Origin: a virus
Reading direction: 5' to 3' (one strand)
Length of the DNA: 64,000 nucleotides
IMG/VR virus record: IMGVR_UViG_3300017971_000272
Span: 1 to 64,000 of that record
In this document: positions 2 through 36,802 of the stretch, piece by piece
Layout: each line of letters starts with the position of its first letter
Position numbering within the stretch: the first letter of the stretch is position 1
Made by a program: the position numbers and the translations under genes
Notes under the pieces: generated by a model
The model's database searches: none
What the model saw: the letters and a program-made list of their open reading frames with translations, nothing else
Told to the model about the DNA's origin: nothing

Positions 2-427
2 CAGGATGAAAAGATATGGGATGATGTTCTTTGTTACGAATCATCTGCATATTATGAGGGTTATTATTTAAATCAAATTGAACTTGCTATATGGCTATAT
101 AAAAATAAAGGACATCGTAATAATCAAATAGTATTACAAATAGCCAAACCTACCGATATGTTATTACAAGATCCTCCTTGTTTAAGGCATATAGATACAC
201 GTATTCAGGATAATAAACTACACTTTATTATCTATTTTAGATCATGGGATCTATGGGCAGGAATGCCTGCCAATCTTGCAGGTATCGAAGCTCTACAACA
301 ATATATGGCAAATGAGATAGGGGTTCAGCAAGGAGAGTTCATTGTTGAATCTAAAGGACTTCATTTGTATGGATATGCAGAAGATTTGGCCCGATTAAGG
401 ACAATGAAAAATATCAGTAAGAATTAA
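2..427 (+). CDS. thyA: Thymidylate synthase, 5'-truncated by window edge
   Basis: Frame is open from base 2. Contains DPPCL (catalytic Cys), YFRSWDL, PANLAG and HLY motifs. Confidence 0.9.
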   Translation, partial: QDEKIWDDVLCYESSAYYEGYYLNQIELAIWLYKNKGHRNNQIVLQIAKPTDMLLQDPPCLRHIDTRIQDNKLHFIIYFRSWDLWAGMPANLAGIEALQQYMANEIGVQQGEFIVESKGLHLYGYAEDLARLRTMKNISKN

Positions 428-445
428 AAAAATTAATAAATAAGG

Positions 446-474
446 TTGACTTTATTTTTATTCTCCTGTATAAC
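446..474 (+). promoter_or_regulatory. Sigma70-type promoter, repeated cassette family
   Basis: TTGACT(446-451)-N17-TATAAC(469-474). Near-identical copies on the - strand at 57645-57673, 59146-59174 and 62951-62979. Confidence 0.85.
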
Positions 475-509
475 TGTACTTAACACTAACCAAACAAGGA
501 GATAAAACC

Positions 510-791
510 ATGCAAACCATCATAATTCCATCACCTTTACAGTCTTGGCCGCATAAAACTAACTATGAGTACAGAGCGTTATTAGAGGACCGGAGAGGCG
601 AGAAAATAATAACAATTCAGGTGCGTGATACTACCGATTCAGATGACAAATGGGAATATACTCCTGGGAGATGGTATCTTGATAGTTTACGGAAAAGCAT
701 CAAGGATATAGTTTTTATTGATTATGGATCGGAATGGGCTGTTTGCGGTATGCAGGAGGTCATGAGAATAGCAGAAAATATCGATATATAG
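510..791 (+). CDS. Hypothetical early protein
   Basis: AAGGAG SD. Has its own promoter and a downstream hairpin (GGGAC-CGAAAA-GTCCC, 803-818). Confidence 0.8.
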   Translation: MQTIIIPSPLQSWPHKTNYEYRALLEDRRGEKIITIQVRDTTDSDDKWEYTPGRWYLDSLRKSIKDIVFIDYGSEWAVCGMQEVMRIAENIDI

Positions 792-843
792 TAACATATA
801 CCGGGACCGAAAAGTCCCTATTAAATAATAAAGGTAGATTTTA

Positions 844-1497
844 ATGGAAAATAGATATCGTTCTTTACTTGCAAAAAGAGATCTGCTTAAAAAACAACTT
901 GCTCAAAAAACAACTCAACTTGAGCAAGTTGAAAAGGATCATAAAAATCATATCAAAGCAAGAGCTGTTATTACTGAACTGTTAGAAAACTCTCAGGATA
1001 AAATGAAAAAAAGAGTAGGGAGTTTAGTGACAAGCGCTATGTCCAGTGTTTTTAATCGTCCCTATAAATTCTCTTTAGAATTTATTCAAAAAAGAAACAA
1101 AGTAGAATGCGTGCCTGTTATAACAGAAAATGATATTATTAATGATGATATCAAATATGATATGGGAGGTGGAATTCTTCCTATTATTTCCTTTCCTCTT
1201 CGTATAGTTTTTAAAACTATACAGGCTAATCCTACAAGAGATGTTATTATATTAGATGAGCCAATAAAAGGTAGTCTTAGCGATCAGACATTGGATAAAA
1301 CAATATCAATGTTTAACGAGCTATCTAAAAAACTCGGAATACAATTAATCCTAATAACCCATTATAAAGAACTGTCCAATGTATGTGATAAGGTTTTTCA
1401 AATAACTCATGATGGAAATAAAAGCATTGTTGAAGGGGATAAAACTGATGCTAAATCAAATAAAAATATTACAAAAAGAACAAGAACCAGACATTAA
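844..1497 (+). CDS. SbcC/Rad50-like recombination ATPase, C-terminal half
   Basis: N-terminal coiled coil, signature-like MGGG, Walker B IILDEP, H-loop LILITH. No Walker A. Confidence 0.8.
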   Translation: MENRYRSLLAKRDLLKKQLAQKTTQLEQVEKDHKNHIKARAVITELLENSQDKMKKRVGSLVTSAMSSVFNRPYKFSLEFIQKRNKVECVPVITENDIINDDIKYDMGGGILPIISFPLRIVFKTIQANPTRDVIILDEPIKGSLSDQTLDKTISMFNELSKKLGIQLILITHYKELSNVCDKVFQITHDGNKSIVEGDKTDAKSNKNITKRTRTRH

Positions 1498-1774
1498 AGA
1501 CCGGATAGGATTTTTTATTGTTGATGAATATTTTATTCTTAACCAATCTTTAGTTTTAACAAAAATAATAGAAAACTTTATAATCACAAATGTACAACAT
1601 TTCCCTGCTTCCAAAAGACTTAAATATACAGCTATGTCTCTTTTGTTTGATAAAATAAAAAATAATGATCCAGTACCACAATATGAGATTATTATAACTA
1701 AACAAAATGATCCACAACATGATATTGTAGTATATGATCTAAAAGTAAATAAAATAAAGGAGGCGATTTCCTAA
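1448..1774 (+). CDS. Hypothetical protein
   Basis: ORF track 1409..1774. ATG at 1448 follows AAGGGG; start uncertain. Confidence 0.6.
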   Translation: MLNQIKILQKEQEPDIKDRIGFFIVDEYFILNQSLVLTKIIENFIITNVQHFPASKRLKYTAMSLLFDKIKNNDPVPQYEIIITKQNDPQHDIVVYDLKVNKIKEAIS

Positions 1775-1812
1775 TTAATTTTTAATCTTTCATTTATAAA
1801 GGGAGGGAACTA

Positions 1813-2007
1813 ATGGACCATAATTTTGATAATGTTATTAACAACTTGATCAGTAATGGATGGAGACTTGATGAGAGATCTCCTAATTTCAAATTACTTG
1901 AACCTCCTGATGGGGATCTTAGAAAACATTTTAAAATGAAATGGAAAGAAATCATATATAAGAATAAACCATTATTCATTCCCGATTTCGCTTTATTAGA
2001 AAACTAA
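1813..2007 (+). CDS. Hypothetical protein
   Basis: GGGAGG SD before the ATG. Confidence 0.65.
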   Translation: MDHNFDNVINNLISNGWRLDERSPNFKLLEPPDGDLRKHFKMKWKEIIYKNKPLFIPDFALLEN

Positions 2008-2216: not shown

Positions 2217-2455
2217 TCTGCTAATAAATTAGAATCTAAGTTTAACTACATGACTGCACTAAAAGGTAATTGGAATGGCATTGAATAAGTTTTTAGTCCT
2301 TAAATATAACACATATGAAGTCCTCCTTTTTCACTGGATTAAAATGTGAATTATGTTTTATACTACTAAAAAAGAAAATTTATTAAATAGATGCGTAGAT
2401 ACTTTCCAGGTTGCTTTTAGAGATTCTATTTTATTATTATTTAAAGGAGTCTTTT

Positions 2456-2644
2456 ATGTGGGATTTGGATAACTGGTACACTGGTGATTATAATATCTAT
2501 CAAAGTGATAGTAAGGATAATAAAAAAGAACAAAATGTTAATTGTTGGTGTGGTACTAAAGCAGTTAAAAAATGTAAACGATGTGATCAACCCCTTTGTA
2601 ATAATTACTTTTGTAAAATTGAACATAATTCTCAAAAACATTAA
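2456..2644 (+). CDS. Small Zn-finger-like protein
   Basis: AAGGAG SD before ATG 2456. CxC..CxxC..C..C..H pattern. Confidence 0.6.
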   Translation: MWDLDNWYTGDYNIYQSDSKDNKKEQNVNCWCGTKAVKKCKRCDQPLCNNYFCKIEHNSQKH

Positions 2645-2654
2645 GGAGCTATTG

Positions 2655-2939
2655 ATGAAAAAACAACCTATTCGATACTATTATGTCACATTTAGTTATA
2701 TTGCTTATCCTATTGGAAAAAGGGAAGATAAGCAATTACATATAACTGATATGGTATTACTTGATACATCTGAAGAAGAATTACAAAGGGGATTAGCAAG
2801 AATACATATAGCTCTCAAAGATAAACTAATGGAAATAGATCAATCTATACCAGCAAGTTATATAGTTAGAACTAAAAAACAGATACTAAGCCATATTGAA
2901 GATGAGAAAAGACTTTTAAAAAATATTAAAAGGAAATAA
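2655..2939 (+). CDS. Hypothetical protein
   Basis: AAGGAG SD about 2643-2648 favours a start near 2655 rather than 2484. Confidence 0.55.
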   Translation: MKKQPIRYYYVTFSYIAYPIGKREDKQLHITDMVLLDTSEEELQRGLARIHIALKDKLMEIDQSIPASYIVRTKKQILSHIEDEKRLLKNIKRK

Positions 2940-3022
2940 TATGTCTAATTTTAGATATTATATTTTGAAATGGTATAAAAGCAAATGGAATAAACGAACC
3001 CCTAAAAAAAGGAGGAACAAGA

Positions 3023-3376
3023 ATGGCAGATCCAAATAAAAAATTAAGTGTTAAATCTTACTTTGCTATGATCATTACTCTTGCTACAATCTGCAGTGGA
3101 ATATTTTTTATTGAAGATCGCTATGCTAAGGCTGAAGAAACCAACAAAAGTATATCTATGCTAAAGGCAGAAACCACTCAAACATTTACTCAGATAAGAA
3201 AAGATCTAAGAAAAGATGCTTTACAAGCAAGAAAACAAATCCTCTTAAACAGAAAATACCTTCTTAGATCTTACAAAAGAAAATATCCCAATGATCCTGA
3301 AATCGATAGGGATATTAAAGAAGTTAAAGAAGAGATCAGTATTGTAAATGAACTACTTGATAGAGAATCTTTATAA
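3023..3376 (+). CDS. Single-TM coiled-coil protein
   Basis: AGGAGG SD, one hydrophobic helix. Its stop abuts the stop of the convergent tail gene. Confidence 0.7.
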   Translation: MADPNKKLSVKSYFAMIITLATICSGIFFIEDRYAKAEETNKSISMLKAETTQTFTQIRKDLRKDALQARKQILLNRKYLLRSYKRKYPNDPEIDRDIKEVKEEISIVNELLDRESL

Positions 3377-34286: not shown

Positions 34287-34463
34287 TTAAAATAACAAAG
34301 ATAAATTGCATTTTTCTATGTCCTCCTCTCTGTTTTTTATTATTTGATTAATTACTGTAATAGCCTTTTCATATCTACTGATATCATGTTTTATTTTTAC
34401 ATACTGAACTAATATATGAGCATCTTCAATACTTCTTTTATCAAATACACTTAAATCTGTCAT
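34287..34463 (-). CDS. 58-aa hypothetical protein (below ORF-track cut-off)
   Basis: ATGA overlap with the MuF stop; open to TAA at 34287. Confidence 0.45.
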   Translation of the reverse strand: MTDLSVFDKRSIEDAHILVQYVKIKHDISRYEKAITVINQIIKNREEDIEKCNLSLLF

Positions 34464-36802
34464 ACTAAACCTTTTGCTTTATTATATAGTTCTGGAAATG
34501 CTGATTTTAAAACATATCTTCCATAACGATCTTTAACTACAGCGCCATTCTTAATCATCTTATCTAATGTGGGTTTAAATGTCTTATCTTTAATATTCCA
34601 AGATGCCTTTTTAATCTGATTTTCTGTGAGAGGTTTATTTGCTAATTCTATTTGTAATCTATTACTCTGTGCTTGTGCAAGAAACTTTTTATTATTCATC
34701 TCAACTAATGTTAATGGTCTTCCATCCTGTTTTATCATTTGAGATGTGCTTATCTTATTTTGCTTCCATAATTTATATCTACCTGGACCAAGTATTTCAA
34801 TCTGCTTTGATTTGGGTAAACTCTGTAACCATTTATCAGTTGTTTCAAATCGCTTGGTATCTAATTTAGTTTCTTTACCTTTTAACTGATCAAGCTTTCT
34901 CCCATACTTTCTCTCCAATCCAGCATCAGCAACTAATTGTTCATATGATTTAGTAATGGGAACTTTTATAGTACGACAATTATGAACTATACAATTCTCT
35001 GCAATATAAGTTTCATCTTCATCAACAGCAAGATTATATACTTGAATTTCCTTAACTTTTTTCTCTTCAATTGATAATATCTTAGAAACTTTCCAACAAG
35101 AAGGAGGATCAATATGGATAAAAGATTTCTTAAAGATCTTATTACGAAAGAACATTTTGATAGAGGAAAATCTATCCGAGAAATAGCCAGAAACCTCTCT
35201 GTTTCTCCTGATAAAATCTACTATTATTGTAAAAAATTTGGAATCAAATACCGATCTCAAAGAGAAGCTTCGAGTATTGCTCTGACTAAAACAAGAGCCA
35301 CAACTCCCCATCCAAGACTTGGCAAAACTAAAGAAACTTGTTCCGTTATCGCATCCCACAGCAAAAGAATGTCTGAAAATAATCCTTCTCAAAGAAAACA
35401 CATTAGAGAAAAAATGTCCAAATCGTTGAGTGAACATCTTAGAAATAATCCCACTAAATACGAAAATAAAATTATTGAATTTCTTGGAGATTATAGAAAT
35501 TATATCTTTCAATATCCCATTGGCATATACATTGCTGATTTTGCCTTTCCAAAACATAAAATTATTCTGGAAATTGATGGGAAAAGTCATATGAATCGGA
35601 ATCGAAAAAGACGTGATATCATAAGAGACAGGAGCCTCATCGATCTCGAATGGATAATCATTAGGTATCTTGAGCCTAAAAAGGGTAGAATCTTTCATGC
35701 TAAAAGAATCTTTCGTATACTGGAATACTTTATCCCCGACTTGAACATCTCCAAACGTCTTCCAGCCCCTAAAAAATGTGAGTATGGGGTGCTCATACGT
35801 TCCGCTCAATATCCTACCGGAATCCGTGTTAAAAATCCTGATCATCTTGTTTCTTATGGTTTTTGACATAGTAGAATAGACATATTTAAATTGACCAGTA
35901 TGCGTTAAAACTCTATCTCCGACTTTAACATCTTCTATTGGTATTTCTCCTTTACTGGTCAATATTTTAGTACCCTTAACCAATGCATTCCAATGGAATG
36001 GAGGACCTCCTGCTACTGGATATGGAATATTATGTCCTATAGGTTGATAATCTAATGTGTATTTACGGCCATGAAGACCTTGACATAATCTTGTTGTGCG
36101 TCTATCAAGAATAGCTACTATCTCCCATCCATTAAATATATCTTGATGTTCTTTGTATACTTGATCATTAGCTTGATTACTAACAGTCAATACAGATGTT
36201 CTAACAAGGGCTTCAGCTTGTCTTCTTGGGATATCTAATATACCTGGACGTCCTTTAGTTCCTTTGATTCTTGTAATGAGTTCTCCAACTGTTTCCCTCT
36301 GAATAATTCCTATTTGCATTTCTCTTGTTGCTTCTTGGAACATTCTCTTAACTGCATCACTGGTATTATCTTTTTGCTTTTTCCACCAATCCTTTACAAG
36401 TCCACCATCTATCAGAGTATTGTTAACAACAGAGTTCAATAAATTTTTAGATATCTTAACTGAAAATACATCCATCACAGTTGTATTTAATAAAGCTGCT
36501 GTGCGTTGATAATTATAATCAGCTATATCTTTTAAAGAGCTATTAGTTTCTTTACTGATTTCTTTATAGTGTTCACTTAATATTCTATCAACTTCTATCT
36601 GTAGTTTTTCAAGTCGTTGTTTTTTATACCGTGATGCTTTTGGAGCTGTTGGATCTATCCTTGCTGTTTTATCTATGATATCTTTTTCAGCATCTTTTAA
36701 TAGATCATAAACCTTTCTATTTAAATTAGCAGCAAGCCTTTCATTGATTATATGTTTAATCAATAACTCATCAGCCAATGTGACATTTACATTTATACTC
36801 AT
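34460..36802 (-). CDS. Head morphogenesis protein (MuF/SPP1 gp7) containing an intein
   Basis: AEALVRT, AILDRRTT..C..LHG, and PPFHWN|CRT split by a Hint domain; follows the portal. Confidence 0.9.
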   Translation of the reverse strand: MSINVNVTLADELLIKHIINERLAANLNRKVYDLLKDAEKDIIDKTARIDPTAPKASRYKKQRLEKLQIEVDRILSEHYKEISKETNSSLKDIADYNYQRTAALLNTTVMDVFSVKISKNLLNSVVNNTLIDGGLVKDWWKKQKDNTSDAVKRMFQEATREMQIGIIQRETVGELITRIKGTKGRPGILDIPRRQAEALVRTSVLTVSNQANDQVYKEHQDIFNGWEIVAILDRRTTRLCQGLHGRKYTLDYQPIGHNIPYPVAGGPPFHWNALVKGTKILTSKGEIPIEDVKVGDRVLTHTGQFKYVYSTMSKTIRNKMIRIFNTDSGRILSGTYEHPILTFFRGWKTFGDVQVGDKVFQYTKDSFSMKDSTLFRLKIPNDYPFEIDEAPVSYDITSFSIPIHMTFPINFQNNFMFWKGKISNVYANGILKDIISIISKKFNNFIFVFSGIISKMFTQRFGHFFSNVFSLRRIIFRHSFAVGCDNGTSFFSFAKSWMGSCGSCFSQSNTRSFSLRSVFDSKFFTIIVDFIRRNREVSGYFSDRFSSIKMFFRNKIFKKSFIHIDPPSCWKVSKILSIEEKKVKEIQVYNLAVDEDETYIAENCIVHNCRTIKVPITKSYEQLVADAGLERKYGRKLDQLKGKETKLDTKRFETTDKWLQSLPKSKQIEILGPGRYKLWKQNKISTSQMIKQDGRPLTLVEMNNKKFLAQAQSNRLQIELANKPLTENQIKKASWNIKDKTFKPTLDKMIKNGAVVKDRYGRYVLKSAFPELYNKAKGLV
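34979..35986 (-). mobile_element. Intein, 336 aa (residues 273-608), Ala1, ends His-Asn, +1 Cys
   Basis: ALVKGTKILT..PIEDVKVGDRVLTH, block B GTYEHP, block F/G VYNLAVDEDETYIAENCIVHN|C. Confidence 0.92.
35114..35866 (+). CDS. Vsr/DUF559-like endonuclease nested antisense in the intein
   Basis: AAGGAGG SD at 35101-35107. N-terminal HTH (KSIREIARNLSVS), NUMOD3-like (NNPS..IREKMSKSL), nuclease motifs PTKYE..FQYPIG.YIADF..ILEIDG.SH..D..RD..L..W.IIR. Confidence 0.85.
   Translation: MDKRFLKDLITKEHFDRGKSIREIARNLSVSPDKIYYYCKKFGIKYRSQREASSIALTKTRATTPHPRLGKTKETCSVIASHSKRMSENNPSQRKHIREKMSKSLSEHLRNNPTKYENKIIEFLGDYRNYIFQYPIGIYIADFAFPKHKIILEIDGKSHMNRNRKRRDIIRDRSLIDLEWIIIRYLEPKKGRIFHAKRIFRILEYFIPDLNISKRLPAPKKCEYGVLIRSAQYPTGIRVKNPDHLVSYGF

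What the first reader, a model, noticed from the sequence alone, without database searches (positions are those of the whole stretch)
34979..35986. Intein whose endonuclease is encoded on the opposite strand, fully dual-coding
Seen: a 336-aa Hint domain splits the MuF motif PPFHWN|CRT. Where an in-frame homing endonuclease normally sits, the intein frame reads as Phe/Ser/Ile-rich text with no recognisable domain but has no stop. The + strand there encodes a 250-aa HTH + NUMOD3-like + Vsr/DUF559-like nuclease (35114..35866) with a perfect AAGGAGG SD and a weak possible promoter (TTAACT 35052-N17-TAATAT 35075). The frames are codon-aligned (35114-34979 = 45 codons), so the nuclease cannot use TTA, CTA or TCA. 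Its roughly 17 Leu codons avoid TTA in a genome where TTA is common, which points to selection to keep both frames open. Its last ~50 codons overlap the intein N-terminal splicing region including block B. Established: intein endonucleases are normally in-frame parts of the spliced protein. Inference: a composite mobile element in which the endonuclease is expressed independently of the late head gene while the intein excises the antisense-derived filler. I do not know of this architecture being described.
Basis: partly seen in the sequence, partly recalled or inferred. Interest (0 to 1): 0.92.

Follow-up and report, generated by a model that had tools for sequence, protein, structure and literature searches.

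The report
Intein with antisense homing-endonuclease gene
A self-splicing protein insert (intein) in a marine phage head-assembly gene carries its DNA-cutting "homing" enzyme as a separate gene on the opposite strand, codon against codon; this is real and under selection, but a 2025 preprint already described the layout in other phages.

Summary
The 780-aa MuF/gp7 head-morphogenesis ORF (34460..36802, -) holds a 336-aa Ala1 intein (34979..35986) at PPFHWN|CRT. Only residues 1-93 and 296-336 fold as a Hint domain. The 202 residues between them are structureless filler.

On the + strand, in exact codon register, lies a 250-aa HTH plus Vsr/DUF559 (EDxHD-type) nuclease gene (35114..35866) with a perfect Shine-Dalgarno sequence.

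About 20 diverged phage loci (about 30% identity), including three cultured Vibrio phages, have the same layout. In all of them the nuclease has no TTA, CTA or TCA codon (P about 1e-8 per AT-rich locus). Unconstrained relatives have 11-13 such codons.

Codon-position conservation shows one selected frame per segment. The nuclease's last ~55 codons are a by-product of Hint block B.

The architecture is not new. Anti-sense VSR-like endonucleases in full inteins, with minor capsid genes among the host proteins listed, are described in bioRxiv 10.1101/2025.01.02.630785. This scan has also met the same family on other genomes.

New here are two clades of split derivatives, each with a "bridge ORF" that keeps the MuF strand translated across the antisense nuclease gene. 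Splicing, expression and cleavage remain untested.

The parts
34460..36802 (-). MuF / SPP1 gp7-type head-morphogenesis precursor ORF, 780 aa, uninterrupted
   Evidence: ORF list. PHROG 241 scores 2e-72 and Pfam Phage_Mu_F is above its cut-off.
35987..36802 (-). N-extein, 272 aa, ending PPFHWN
   Evidence: Alignment A1. Intein-less MuF genes read PPFHVR|CRTT (L038, L039) and PLHFN|CRS (L077, L086).
34979..35986 (-). Intein, 336 aa: Ala1 ... VHN, followed by Cys+1 (34976..34978)
   Evidence: Pfam Hint_2 at 2e-8 and Intein_splicing. Alignments A1 and A4. Boundaries are shared by 15 homologues.
35708..35986 (-). Hint N-lobe, intein residues 1-93 (block A; block B T63..H66 at 35789..35800)
   Evidence: AF2 pLDDT 88-96 for residues 1-90. 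The Hint frame is the selected frame above about 35696.
35102..35707 (-). Filler, intein residues 94-295: antisense translation of the nuclease gene, stop-free but with no predicted structure
   Evidence: AF2 pLDDT below 50 for residues 94-295. MuF-frame BLOSUM score is about 0, and the wobble position is that of the + frame.
34979..35101 (-). Hint C-lobe, intein residues 296-336 (blocks F and G, VYNLAV...IVHN)
   Evidence: AF2 pLDDT 90-95. The Hint frame is selected below about 35057.
34460..34978 (-). C-extein, 172 aa plus stop, starting CRT
35114..35866 (+). Homing-endonuclease gene, 250 aa, codon-aligned antisense to the intein, with no TTA, CTA or TCA codon
   Evidence: AF2 model has mean pLDDT 86. 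Profile E-values of 1e-40 to 1e-73 in about 20 loci.
35101..35107 (+). Shine-Dalgarno AAGGAGG, 6 nt before the nuclease ATG
   Evidence: An SD of at least 5/6 at 4-9 nt spacing is present in 9 of 17 homologous loci.
35159..35233 (+). N-terminal helix-turn-helix region (nuclease residues 16-40)
   Evidence: Weak Pfam HTH_38/HTH_28 hits at 0.0025-0.007, below cut-off. Helices appear in the AF2 model. The G-K-S-L-R-x-I-E-R motif is conserved in A2.
35420..35671 (+). Vsr/DUF559 (EDxHD-type) catalytic domain, residues 103-186. E153 at 35570..35572, D155 at 35576..35578, H159 at 35588..35590.
   Evidence: Pfam DUF559 at 1e-10. PDB profile hits 3HRL at 2e-13 and 3R3P (I-Bth0305I) at 9e-4. Foldseek top matches are 3r3p and 3hrl, probability 0.97. 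E153 is invariant; D155 and H159 are nearly invariant.
35696..35866 (+). C-terminal tail of the nuclease ORF, antisense to Hint block B. Probably a by-product rather than a selected part of the nuclease.
   Evidence: Here the wobble position switches to that of the Hint frame. Relatives of 200-220 aa end at profile position about 195-208 and lack the tail.

Best explanation
This is a mobile intein of the non-canonical type whose homing endonuclease is a separate gene on the antisense strand.

A 134-residue Hint splicing domain (N-lobe 93 aa, C-lobe 41 aa) sits in the conserved PPxHxN|CR(S/T) motif of the phage MuF/gp7 head-morphogenesis protein. The loop between the lobes, where canonical inteins hold an in-frame endonuclease, is 202 codons long. 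Its reverse complement, on the same triplets, encodes a 250-aa HTH plus Vsr/EDxHD-family nuclease.

Inferred steps:
- The late MuF mRNA is translated straight through the structureless filler.
- The intein then splices out. Because it has Ala1, Cys+1 and no class-3 WCT motif, splicing is probably class-2-like, with direct attack by Cys+1. This restores MuF.
- The nuclease is translated from its own Shine-Dalgarno sequence on an antisense transcript.
- It cuts intein-less MuF alleles of co-infecting phages near the HWN|CRT-coding site.
- Recombinational repair then copies the intein and nuclease gene into the cut allele.

Because MuF is needed, any TTA, CTA or TCA codon in the nuclease gene (a stop in the MuF frame) is removed by selection.

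Shown here: the ORFs, domain identities, codon register, conservation, codon avoidance, and which frame is selected in each segment.
Inferred: splicing, antisense expression, cleavage specificity and homing.
For: 1. Domain identities: Hint and MuF in the - frame, DUF559 in the + frame. PDB profile hits are 3HRL at 2e-13 and I-Bth0305I (3R3P) at 9e-4. The AF2 model (pLDDT 86) has I-Bth0305I, 3HRL and Vsr among its top Foldseek matches. E153, D155 and H159 are conserved.

2. Recurrence: three Vibrio phages (MG592631, MG592457, MG592630) and about 17 IMG/VR loci carry a nuclease homologue (about 30% identity, 0 stops) antisense inside an uninterrupted MuF-intein ORF, always in codon register.

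3. Codon avoidance: 0 forbidden codons in 17 of 17 contiguous loci. P is 1e-7 to 1e-10 each in 12 low- or mid-GC loci.

4. Natural controls: relatives without an overlapping intein frame (L083, L094) have 11-13 stops in that register. Split forms have 5-22.

5. Frame-specific selection: the wobble position follows the nuclease frame at 35117..~35680 and the Hint frame outside that range. AF2 folds intein residues 1-93 and 296-336 with pLDDT above 90 and leaves 94-295 below 50.

6. Insertion site: intein-less MuF genes read PPFHxx|CR or PLHFN|CRS.

7. Translation signal: an SD is present before the nuclease start in 9 of 17 loci.

8. Literature: the same architecture is described for actinobacteriophages. 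I-Bth0305I is a biochemically proven homing endonuclease with an N-terminal HTH/NUMOD region and a C-terminal Vsr domain.
Against: - There is no experimental or expression evidence for this element.
- No credible sigma-70 promoter lies upstream of the nuclease.
- Ala1 removes the usual N-terminal nucleophile, so splicing depends on a less common mechanism that cannot be tested here.
- In the split relatives the MuF strand is still kept translatable across the nuclease gene by bridge ORFs in another frame. Part of the pressure for an open frame may therefore be continuous translation rather than covalent continuity of the intein.
- Intein-less close relatives of this particular phage were not found, so ongoing homing is not shown for this lineage.
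Confidence: 0.8

Rival explanations
1. The open MuF-strand frame is kept mainly for uninterrupted translation across the antisense gene, not because the intein must be one polypeptide. Possible reasons are translational coupling of the downstream part, avoidance of Rho-type polarity in the late operon, or protection from sense-antisense RNA pairing. On this view the window's intein could even work partly from an internal start.
For: - In 12 of 13 split loci a bridge ORF in another frame starts at the N-fragment stop and ends -19 to +18 nt from the IntC ATG.
- Synonymous shuffles rarely leave that register open: 0-64 of 3000, with one case at 269.
- Two free-standing antisense nuclease genes just downstream of intein-less MuF (L077, L086) are covered by 201-240-codon ORFs on the MuF strand.
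- In split clade 1 the N-fragment still reads through the antisense of the whole Vsr domain, P 7e-4 to 2e-12.
- The window's filler holds an in-frame ATG, antisense to the conserved His codon CAT.
Against: - In contiguous forms the open frame is always the intein's own register, 17 of 17. Covalent continuity explains this most simply.
- The gap region that fills with stops in split clade 1 is stop-free in all contiguous forms.
- No expression data exist.
Confidence: 0.1
2. The nuclease no longer serves homing. It has been kept for another role, for example cutting competitor phage genomes or acting as a DNA-binding regulator, and the intein is now vertically inherited.
For: - The nuclease is under purifying selection in lineages that have diverged to about 30% identity.
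- The preprint reports that several VSR-like-HEN inteins show vertical-looking inheritance.
- No intein-less close relative of the window phage was found.
Against: - The catalytic residues and the HTH + Vsr layout match the proven homing enzyme I-Bth0305I.
- The intein occupies the same site in very different MuF exteins (25-30% identity), and intein-less MuF genes exist. This patchy pattern is typical of homing.
Confidence: 0.07
3. The intein is splicing-dead and the 336-residue insert stays in mature MuF as a tolerated loop, like the ShiLan-type insertion with a hidden HNH gene.
For: - Ala1 lacks the canonical nucleophile.
- Elements without splicing domains but with hidden out-of-frame nucleases exist (PMC11855218).
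Against: - Block B T..H, the terminal HN and Cys+1 are invariant or nearly so across 15 homologues. Some homologues have Cys1 or Ser1.
- The Hint lobes are under strong purifying selection and fold confidently.
Confidence: 0.03

Closest known systems
Non-canonical inteins with an anti-sense VSR-like homing endonuclease in actinobacteriophages (Gosselin, Arsenault and Gogarten, bioRxiv 10.1101/2025.01.02.630785)
   Same: - A full, unsplit intein.
- The endonuclease slot, read in the intein frame, gives no recognisable structure.
- A VSR-like nuclease ORF lies on the antisense strand.
- Host proteins listed include the minor capsid protein (IPR006528, the MuF/gp7 family).
- The proposed origin is invasion of an intein by a free-standing endonuclease gene.
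   Different: - The window is an uncultivated marine phage at 32% GC, and its relatives include Vibrio phages, not actinophages.
- The preprint text I read does not treat codon register, TTA/CTA/TCA avoidance or per-frame selection.
[quoted passage not shown] Here the ORF runs ~53 codons into the Hint N-lobe.
- It names split relics as something still to be looked for. They are found here.
- I could not check whether its minor-capsid cases use the same insertion site or are sequence relatives.
Ssp DnaX and Chloroflexus SpoVR-like inteins with a LAGLIDADG endonuclease outside the intein frame (Gorbalenya 1998; Gogarten 2002; Phillips et al. bioRxiv 10.64898/2026.09.14.751524)
   Same: The endonuclease is encoded in a frame other than the intein's. 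The intein frame stays open. Selection acts on the endonuclease frame within the overlap.
   Different: The nuclease family is different (LAGLIDADG) and the host genes are cellular. The 2025 preprint calls the arrangement anti-sense, while the 2026 preprint describes a +2 frame on the same strand.
EDxHD / Vsr-like homing endonucleases, prototype I-Bth0305I (Taylor et al. 2011, PMC3239194)
   Same: An N-terminal HTH/NUMOD-type DNA-binding region plus a C-terminal Vsr-fold catalytic domain with conserved E, D and H residues. The family is associated with phage mobile elements.
   Different: I-Bth0305I sits in a group I intron of recA. Sequence similarity is distant (profile E 9e-4). The closest solved relative by sequence is the DUF559 protein 3HRL.
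'Fractured genes': split inteins with a free-standing Vsr-like or GIY-YIG endonuclease gene between the halves (Dassa et al. 2009, PMC2677866)
   Same: The same nuclease superfamily lies between intein halves in marine phage-like DNA. In that work the endonuclease's 3' end overlaps the downstream IntC gene by 6-69 bp, which suggests coupling.
   Different: There the endonuclease gene, as I read the text, lies on the same strand as the broken gene: its 3' end overlaps the start of its downstream gene. The window's intein is unbroken and its nuclease is antisense. The split relatives found here (L059-L065, L075-L085) differ in having the nuclease antisense and a separate bridge ORF.

Membership tests
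Intein (Hint-domain protein-splicing element) | Hint fold with blocks A, B, F and G, a terminal His-Asn, and a nucleophile at +1 | tested here: met
   Pfam Hint_2 at 2e-8, above its cut-off. T63..H66, VHN and Cys+1 are conserved. AF2 gives the lobes pLDDT above 90.
Intein (Hint-domain protein-splicing element) | In-frame insertion at a conserved site of a host protein that also exists without the insert | tested here: met
   The insertion site is PPxHxN|CR(S/T). Intein-less MuF genes are L038, L039, L077 and L086.
Intein (Hint-domain protein-splicing element) | Protein-splicing activity | not testable with these tools
   Needs expression and detection of the spliced product.
Class 1 intein | Cys, Ser or Thr at intein position 1 | tested here: not met
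   The window has Ala1 in register with block A. Homologues L005 and P0003 have Cys1 and L017 has Ser1.
Class 3 intein | WCT motif (Trp B:12, Cys F:4, Thr G:5) | tested here: not met
   By my reading of the block positions (criteria from my knowledge of Tori et al. 2010): block B reads HPI, block F reads VYNLAV, and block G reads IVHN. There is no Trp, Cys or Thr at the motif positions.
Class 2 (KlbA-type) intein | Ala1 with Cys+1 attacking the N-terminal junction directly | tested here: inconclusive
   The sequence prerequisites (Ala1, Cys+1, no WCT) are met. The mechanism cannot be tested, and no sequence kinship to KlbA was examined.
EDxHD / Vsr-like homing endonuclease | Vsr-fold catalytic domain with conserved E, D and H residues | tested here: met
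   DUF559 at 1e-10. 3HRL at 2e-13 and 3R3P at 9e-4. Foldseek 3r3p and 3hrl at probability 0.97, TM 0.60-0.65 on the target. E153, D155 and H159 are conserved.
EDxHD / Vsr-like homing endonuclease | N-terminal NUMOD/HTH DNA-binding region | tested here: inconclusive
   HTH profiles hit only below cut-off, at 0.0025-0.01. There is no NUMOD profile hit. The helical N-terminal half is modelled confidently.
EDxHD / Vsr-like homing endonuclease | Site-specific cleavage of the element-free allele | not testable with these tools
   Needs a biochemical assay.
Non-canonical intein with anti-sense VSR-like HEN (Gosselin et al. 2025) | Unsplit intein; VSR-like ORF on the antisense strand of the endonuclease slot; the in-frame translation of that slot is structureless | tested here: met
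   compared with the description.
Fractured gene / naturally split intein (Dassa et al. 2009) | Host gene broken into two ORFs, each carrying an intein half | tested here: not met
   The window ORF is uninterrupted. The feature is met by relatives L059-L065 and L075-L085.

The most novel reading that the evidence does not exclude
What selection preserves is uninterrupted translation of the late-operon strand across an antisense homing-endonuclease gene. The contiguous intein is one solution, with the cover frame being the intein's own frame. The split relatives, and free-standing antisense nucleases next to intein-less MuF, use another: a separate 'bridge' or cover ORF in a different register, joined by overlapping stop/start codons to the ORFs on either side. 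Such cover ORFs may travel with the nuclease cassette and may be what lets it sit antisense inside essential operons. I found no description of this.
Probability: 0.35. Interest if true: 0.75.

Novelty: new member of a known kind. Interest (0 to 1): 0.5.

Why it matters
The case shows that one stretch of DNA can be held open in two antiparallel frames for hundreds of codons by a simple selective logic. An essential head protein must be read through its parasite's gene, and this leaves a measurable signature: the parasite's gene never uses TTA, CTA or TCA.

Gene callers miss the nuclease. The three GenBank Vibrio phage records annotate only a 'hint domain' or 'coil containing' protein there. 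Such elements are therefore under-counted.

Three states occur in one family: contiguous, split with a partial bridge, and split with a full bridge. Together they form a natural series for studying how inteins become split and how antisense genes are tolerated in phage late operons. Cultured Vibrio phages carrying the element make experiments feasible.

Tried and rejected
The context of database proteins P0003-P0014 and of the 83 strong nuclease clusters could not be read. IMG/VR loci were used instead.
- blastn of the MuF gene against INPHARED phages found nothing.
- The first related-loci run, with the single nuclease protein, gave only two weak loci.
- Alignment A2 was too diverse for pattern search. 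Sub-alignments A3 and A5 worked.
- The promoter scan found no site upstream of the nuclease and no excess over shuffles. No terminator was found.
- Sequencing runs: no RNA holder is listed. Only two metagenome DNA runs hold the stretch, and they may be the source.
- NUMOD3 was not detected by Pfam.
- Foldseek E-values for the whole 250-aa model are weak (0.06-0.09) because only the ~100-residue domain matches. The family assignment rests on the profile hits.
- Chance, or a mere 'filter on arrival', as the cause of the open frame was rejected. Nuclease GC equals genome GC, unconstrained relatives carry 11-13 stops in that register, and split forms gain stops only where no MuF-strand ORF in that register covers them.
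- Recoding of stops in the split forms was rejected. TAA, TAG and TGA all occur.
- Programmed frameshifting through the bridge ORFs was judged unlikely, because the frame relations differ between loci.
- Complex prediction was not run. Split-intein halves would pass by likeness to solved structures.
Full report
**Observation.** The window holds a 780-aa ORF on the - strand (34460..36802), between the portal gene and the scaffold gene. PHROG 241 'head morphogenesis' matches it at 2e-72 in two stretches, and Pfam finds Phage_Mu_F (residues 171-272) and Hint_2. The 336 residues at 34979..35986 interrupt PPFHWN|CRT. They begin with Ala, in register with intein block A, and end in VHN followed by Cys. 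On the + strand, 35114..35866 is a 250-aa ORF preceded by AAGGAGG 6 nt upstream. Pfam places DUF559 at its residues 103-186 (1e-10, above the cut-off). HTH families hit the N-terminus only weakly, and NUMOD3 is not hit. The two frames share the same triplets. The + ORF has 17 Leu and 19 Ser codons and none is TTA, CTA or TCA, whereas 24 of 44 Leu codons in the MuF exteins are TTA. The chance of this is about 8e-7 from overall codon frequency, or 8e-9 given the protein's own Leu/Ser content and flanking usage. The proposed promoter is not supported.

**Recurrence.** tblastn of the + ORF against GenBank phages hits three Nahant-collection Vibrio phages at about 31% identity. Each hit is antisense inside an uninterrupted 697-707-aa CDS annotated only as 'hint domain protein' or 'coil containing protein', at the same PPxHxN|CRS site. 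A search with the intein region found ten more full-length MuF-intein proteins at about 30% identity (alignment A1). IMG/VR loci were fetched with A1 and scanned in six frames with a nuclease profile. About 17 further loci carry an intact nuclease homologue (profile E 1e-28 to 1e-73, no stops) on the strand opposite to MuF, always in codon register. The MuF frame is open for about 400-1077 codons; the two shortest spans are cut by a contig end. In the 17 contiguous loci that could be tabulated, none has a forbidden codon. In 12 low- or mid-GC loci the per-locus probability is 1e-7 to 1e-10.

**Which frame is selected where.** I built a codon alignment of 16 loci. From 35117 to about 35680 the least conserved codon position is the third position of the + frame. 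There the nuclease translation scores BLOSUM 1-2.7 and the MuF-frame translation about 0. Below about 35057 and above about 35696 the pattern reverses, and the Hint frame is the selected one. AlphaFold2 agrees. Intein residues 1-93 and 296-336 fold with pLDDT above 90, while residues 94-295 stay below 50. The nuclease model is confident, with mean pLDDT 86. So both frames are open over all 753 nt, but each segment has only one frame under amino-acid selection. The last ~55 nuclease codons, which include a conserved YRV-type motif, mirror Hint block B. Relatives of 200-220 aa end right after the Vsr domain.

**Identity of the nuclease.** A profile of 16 homologues (A2) hits the DUF559 structure 3HRL at 2e-13 and the catalytic domain of the homing endonuclease I-Bth0305I (3R3P) at 9e-4. 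Those two and Vsr are among the best structural matches of the model. E153 is invariant, and D155 and H159 are nearly so. I-Bth0305I is the prototype of the EDxHD family. It has an N-terminal HTH/NUMOD region and a C-terminal Vsr domain (PMC3239194), which is the layout seen here.

**Controls.** Relatives of the nuclease that are not overlapped by an intein frame have 11-13 stops in the codon-aligned antisense register and 9-15 in the other two (L083, L094). A clade of six diverged loci (L059 = L018, L060-L062, L064, L065) has the MuF gene split. The N-fragment is the N-extein, the Hint N-lobe and about 90 aa of filler. The C-fragment starts at a conserved ATG 56-58 aa before VHN|CRS (57-59 by the count). 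The antisense nuclease there has 5-13 forbidden codons giving TAA, TAG and TGA alike. On a nuclease tree this clade is nested, with 99/97 support, among contiguous forms, so the split state is derived and arose once or twice. Stop avoidance therefore reflects continuing selection, not only a filter at insertion.

**Literature.** The arrangement is described. [quoted passage not shown] The host proteins listed for the non-canonical types include the minor capsid protein (IPR006528). They note that the in-frame translation gives no recognisable structure, and they propose invasion of an intein by a free-standing endonuclease gene. They cite Gorbalenya 1998 and Gogarten 2002 for earlier anti-sense LAGLIDADG cases. 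A 2026 preprint analyses the cyanobacterial dnaX intein with an out-of-frame endonuclease and shows frame-specific selection. Dassa et al. 2009 described Vsr-like endonuclease genes, co-oriented as I read the text, between split-intein halves. This scan has also reported the same MuF-intein and antisense-nuclease family on several other genomes. The window is therefore a new member of a known kind, here in an uncultivated marine phage with 32% GC. Two metagenome runs hold the stretch, one labelled sediment and one seawater, and either may be its source.

**What goes beyond the literature I read.**
1. The quantified codon signature and the per-segment selection map.
2. The split derivatives with an antisense nuclease, which the 2025 preprint names as something still to be sought.
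3. Bridge ORFs. In all six loci of split clade 1 a 91-119-codon ORF lies in another frame. It starts at or overlaps the N-fragment stop (for example GTGA). In the four loci measured by script it ends 4-5 nt past the IntC ATG; in L064 I read an overlapping ATGA from the coordinates; L065 has a like-placed ORF whose junction I did not measure. In a second split clade, with nucleases of 182-218 aa (one ORF is called at 261 aa) (A5), six of seven loci have a 183-232-codon ORF on the MuF strand. It covers the whole nuclease gene in a non-aligned register and ends -19 to +18 nt from a 37-42-aa IntC start. Synonymous shuffles leave that register open in 0-64 of 3000 trials, with one locus at 269. Two free-standing antisense nucleases just after intein-less MuF genes (L077, L086) have the same kind of cover ORF, while L083 and L094 do not.
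4. In split clade 1 the N-fragment still reads, stop-free, through the antisense of the whole Vsr domain (P 7e-4 to 2e-12 per locus).

Taken together, these points suggest that continuous translation of the MuF strand over the antisense gene is itself under selection. I rate this a hypothesis (0.35), not a result.

**Mechanism and limits.** The most likely account is a mobile intein whose endonuclease is expressed separately from the antisense strand. Splicing is probably class-2-like, because the intein has Ala1 and Cys+1 and lacks the class-3 motif; homologues with Cys1 or Ser1 exist. Splicing, antisense transcription, cleavage and homing are all inferred.

Noticed in passing
L059 (=L018) 2282..3082 region; L060-L062, L064, L065: A clade of six diverged loci in which the MuF intein is split and the Vsr nuclease gene lies antisense between and over the halves. 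MuF-frame stops (TAA, TAG and TGA) occur only opposite the HTH/linker half of the nuclease. The N-fragment still reads stop-free through the antisense of the Vsr domain.
   Followed up: partly
L059-L065; L075, L078, L080, L081, L084, L085; L077, L086: Bridge or cover ORFs on the MuF strand, in a frame different from the intein's. They begin at the upstream ORF's stop and end within about 20 nt of the next ORF's start, so the strand stays translated across the antisense nuclease gene. They are rare in synonymous shuffles, and absent in L083, L094 and the decayed L076.
   Followed up: partly
L077 and L086 (MuF-orientation coordinates about 2..2000): Intein-less MuF genes (…PLHFN|CRS…) followed immediately by a free-standing antisense nuclease of the same superfamily. 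This may be the free-standing stage of the element.
   Followed up: no
P0022 (517 aa); L045 838..3108 (+): Inteins with an in-frame DUF559/Vsr domain (Pfam DUF559 at 1.5e-7 and 6e-13 inside Intein_splicing). The 2025 preprint mentions no in-frame VSR-like intein endonucleases.
   Followed up: partly
L001 2992..3729, L002 2965..3705, L003 (GenBank MG592631, MG592630, MG592457): The antisense nuclease gene is not annotated in the three cultured Vibrio phage records. The host CDS is labelled only 'hint domain protein', 'hedgehog/hint domain protein' or 'coil containing protein'.
   Followed up: yes
Intein position 1 in A1 and A4 (window 35984..35986): Position 1 is Ala in most homologues, but Cys in L005 and P0003 and Ser in L017. 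The family therefore switches between a canonical and a nucleophile-less N-terminus at the same insertion site.
   Followed up: partly
L046 1501..1980 and downstream: A different gene whose Hint N-lobe ends in a stop and is followed on the same strand by an HNH-like ORF. It looks like a co-oriented fractured gene.
   Followed up: no
window 35123..35125 region (filler 'KMFF', antisense to nuclease K-E-H-F): The conserved His codon of the nuclease N-terminus is CAT in the window, giving an in-frame ATG in the filler. A neighbouring conserved His codon (the H of K-H-G-K-S-L-R) supplies the IntC start in split clade 1. Contiguous forms use CAT or CAC about equally.
   Followed up: partly
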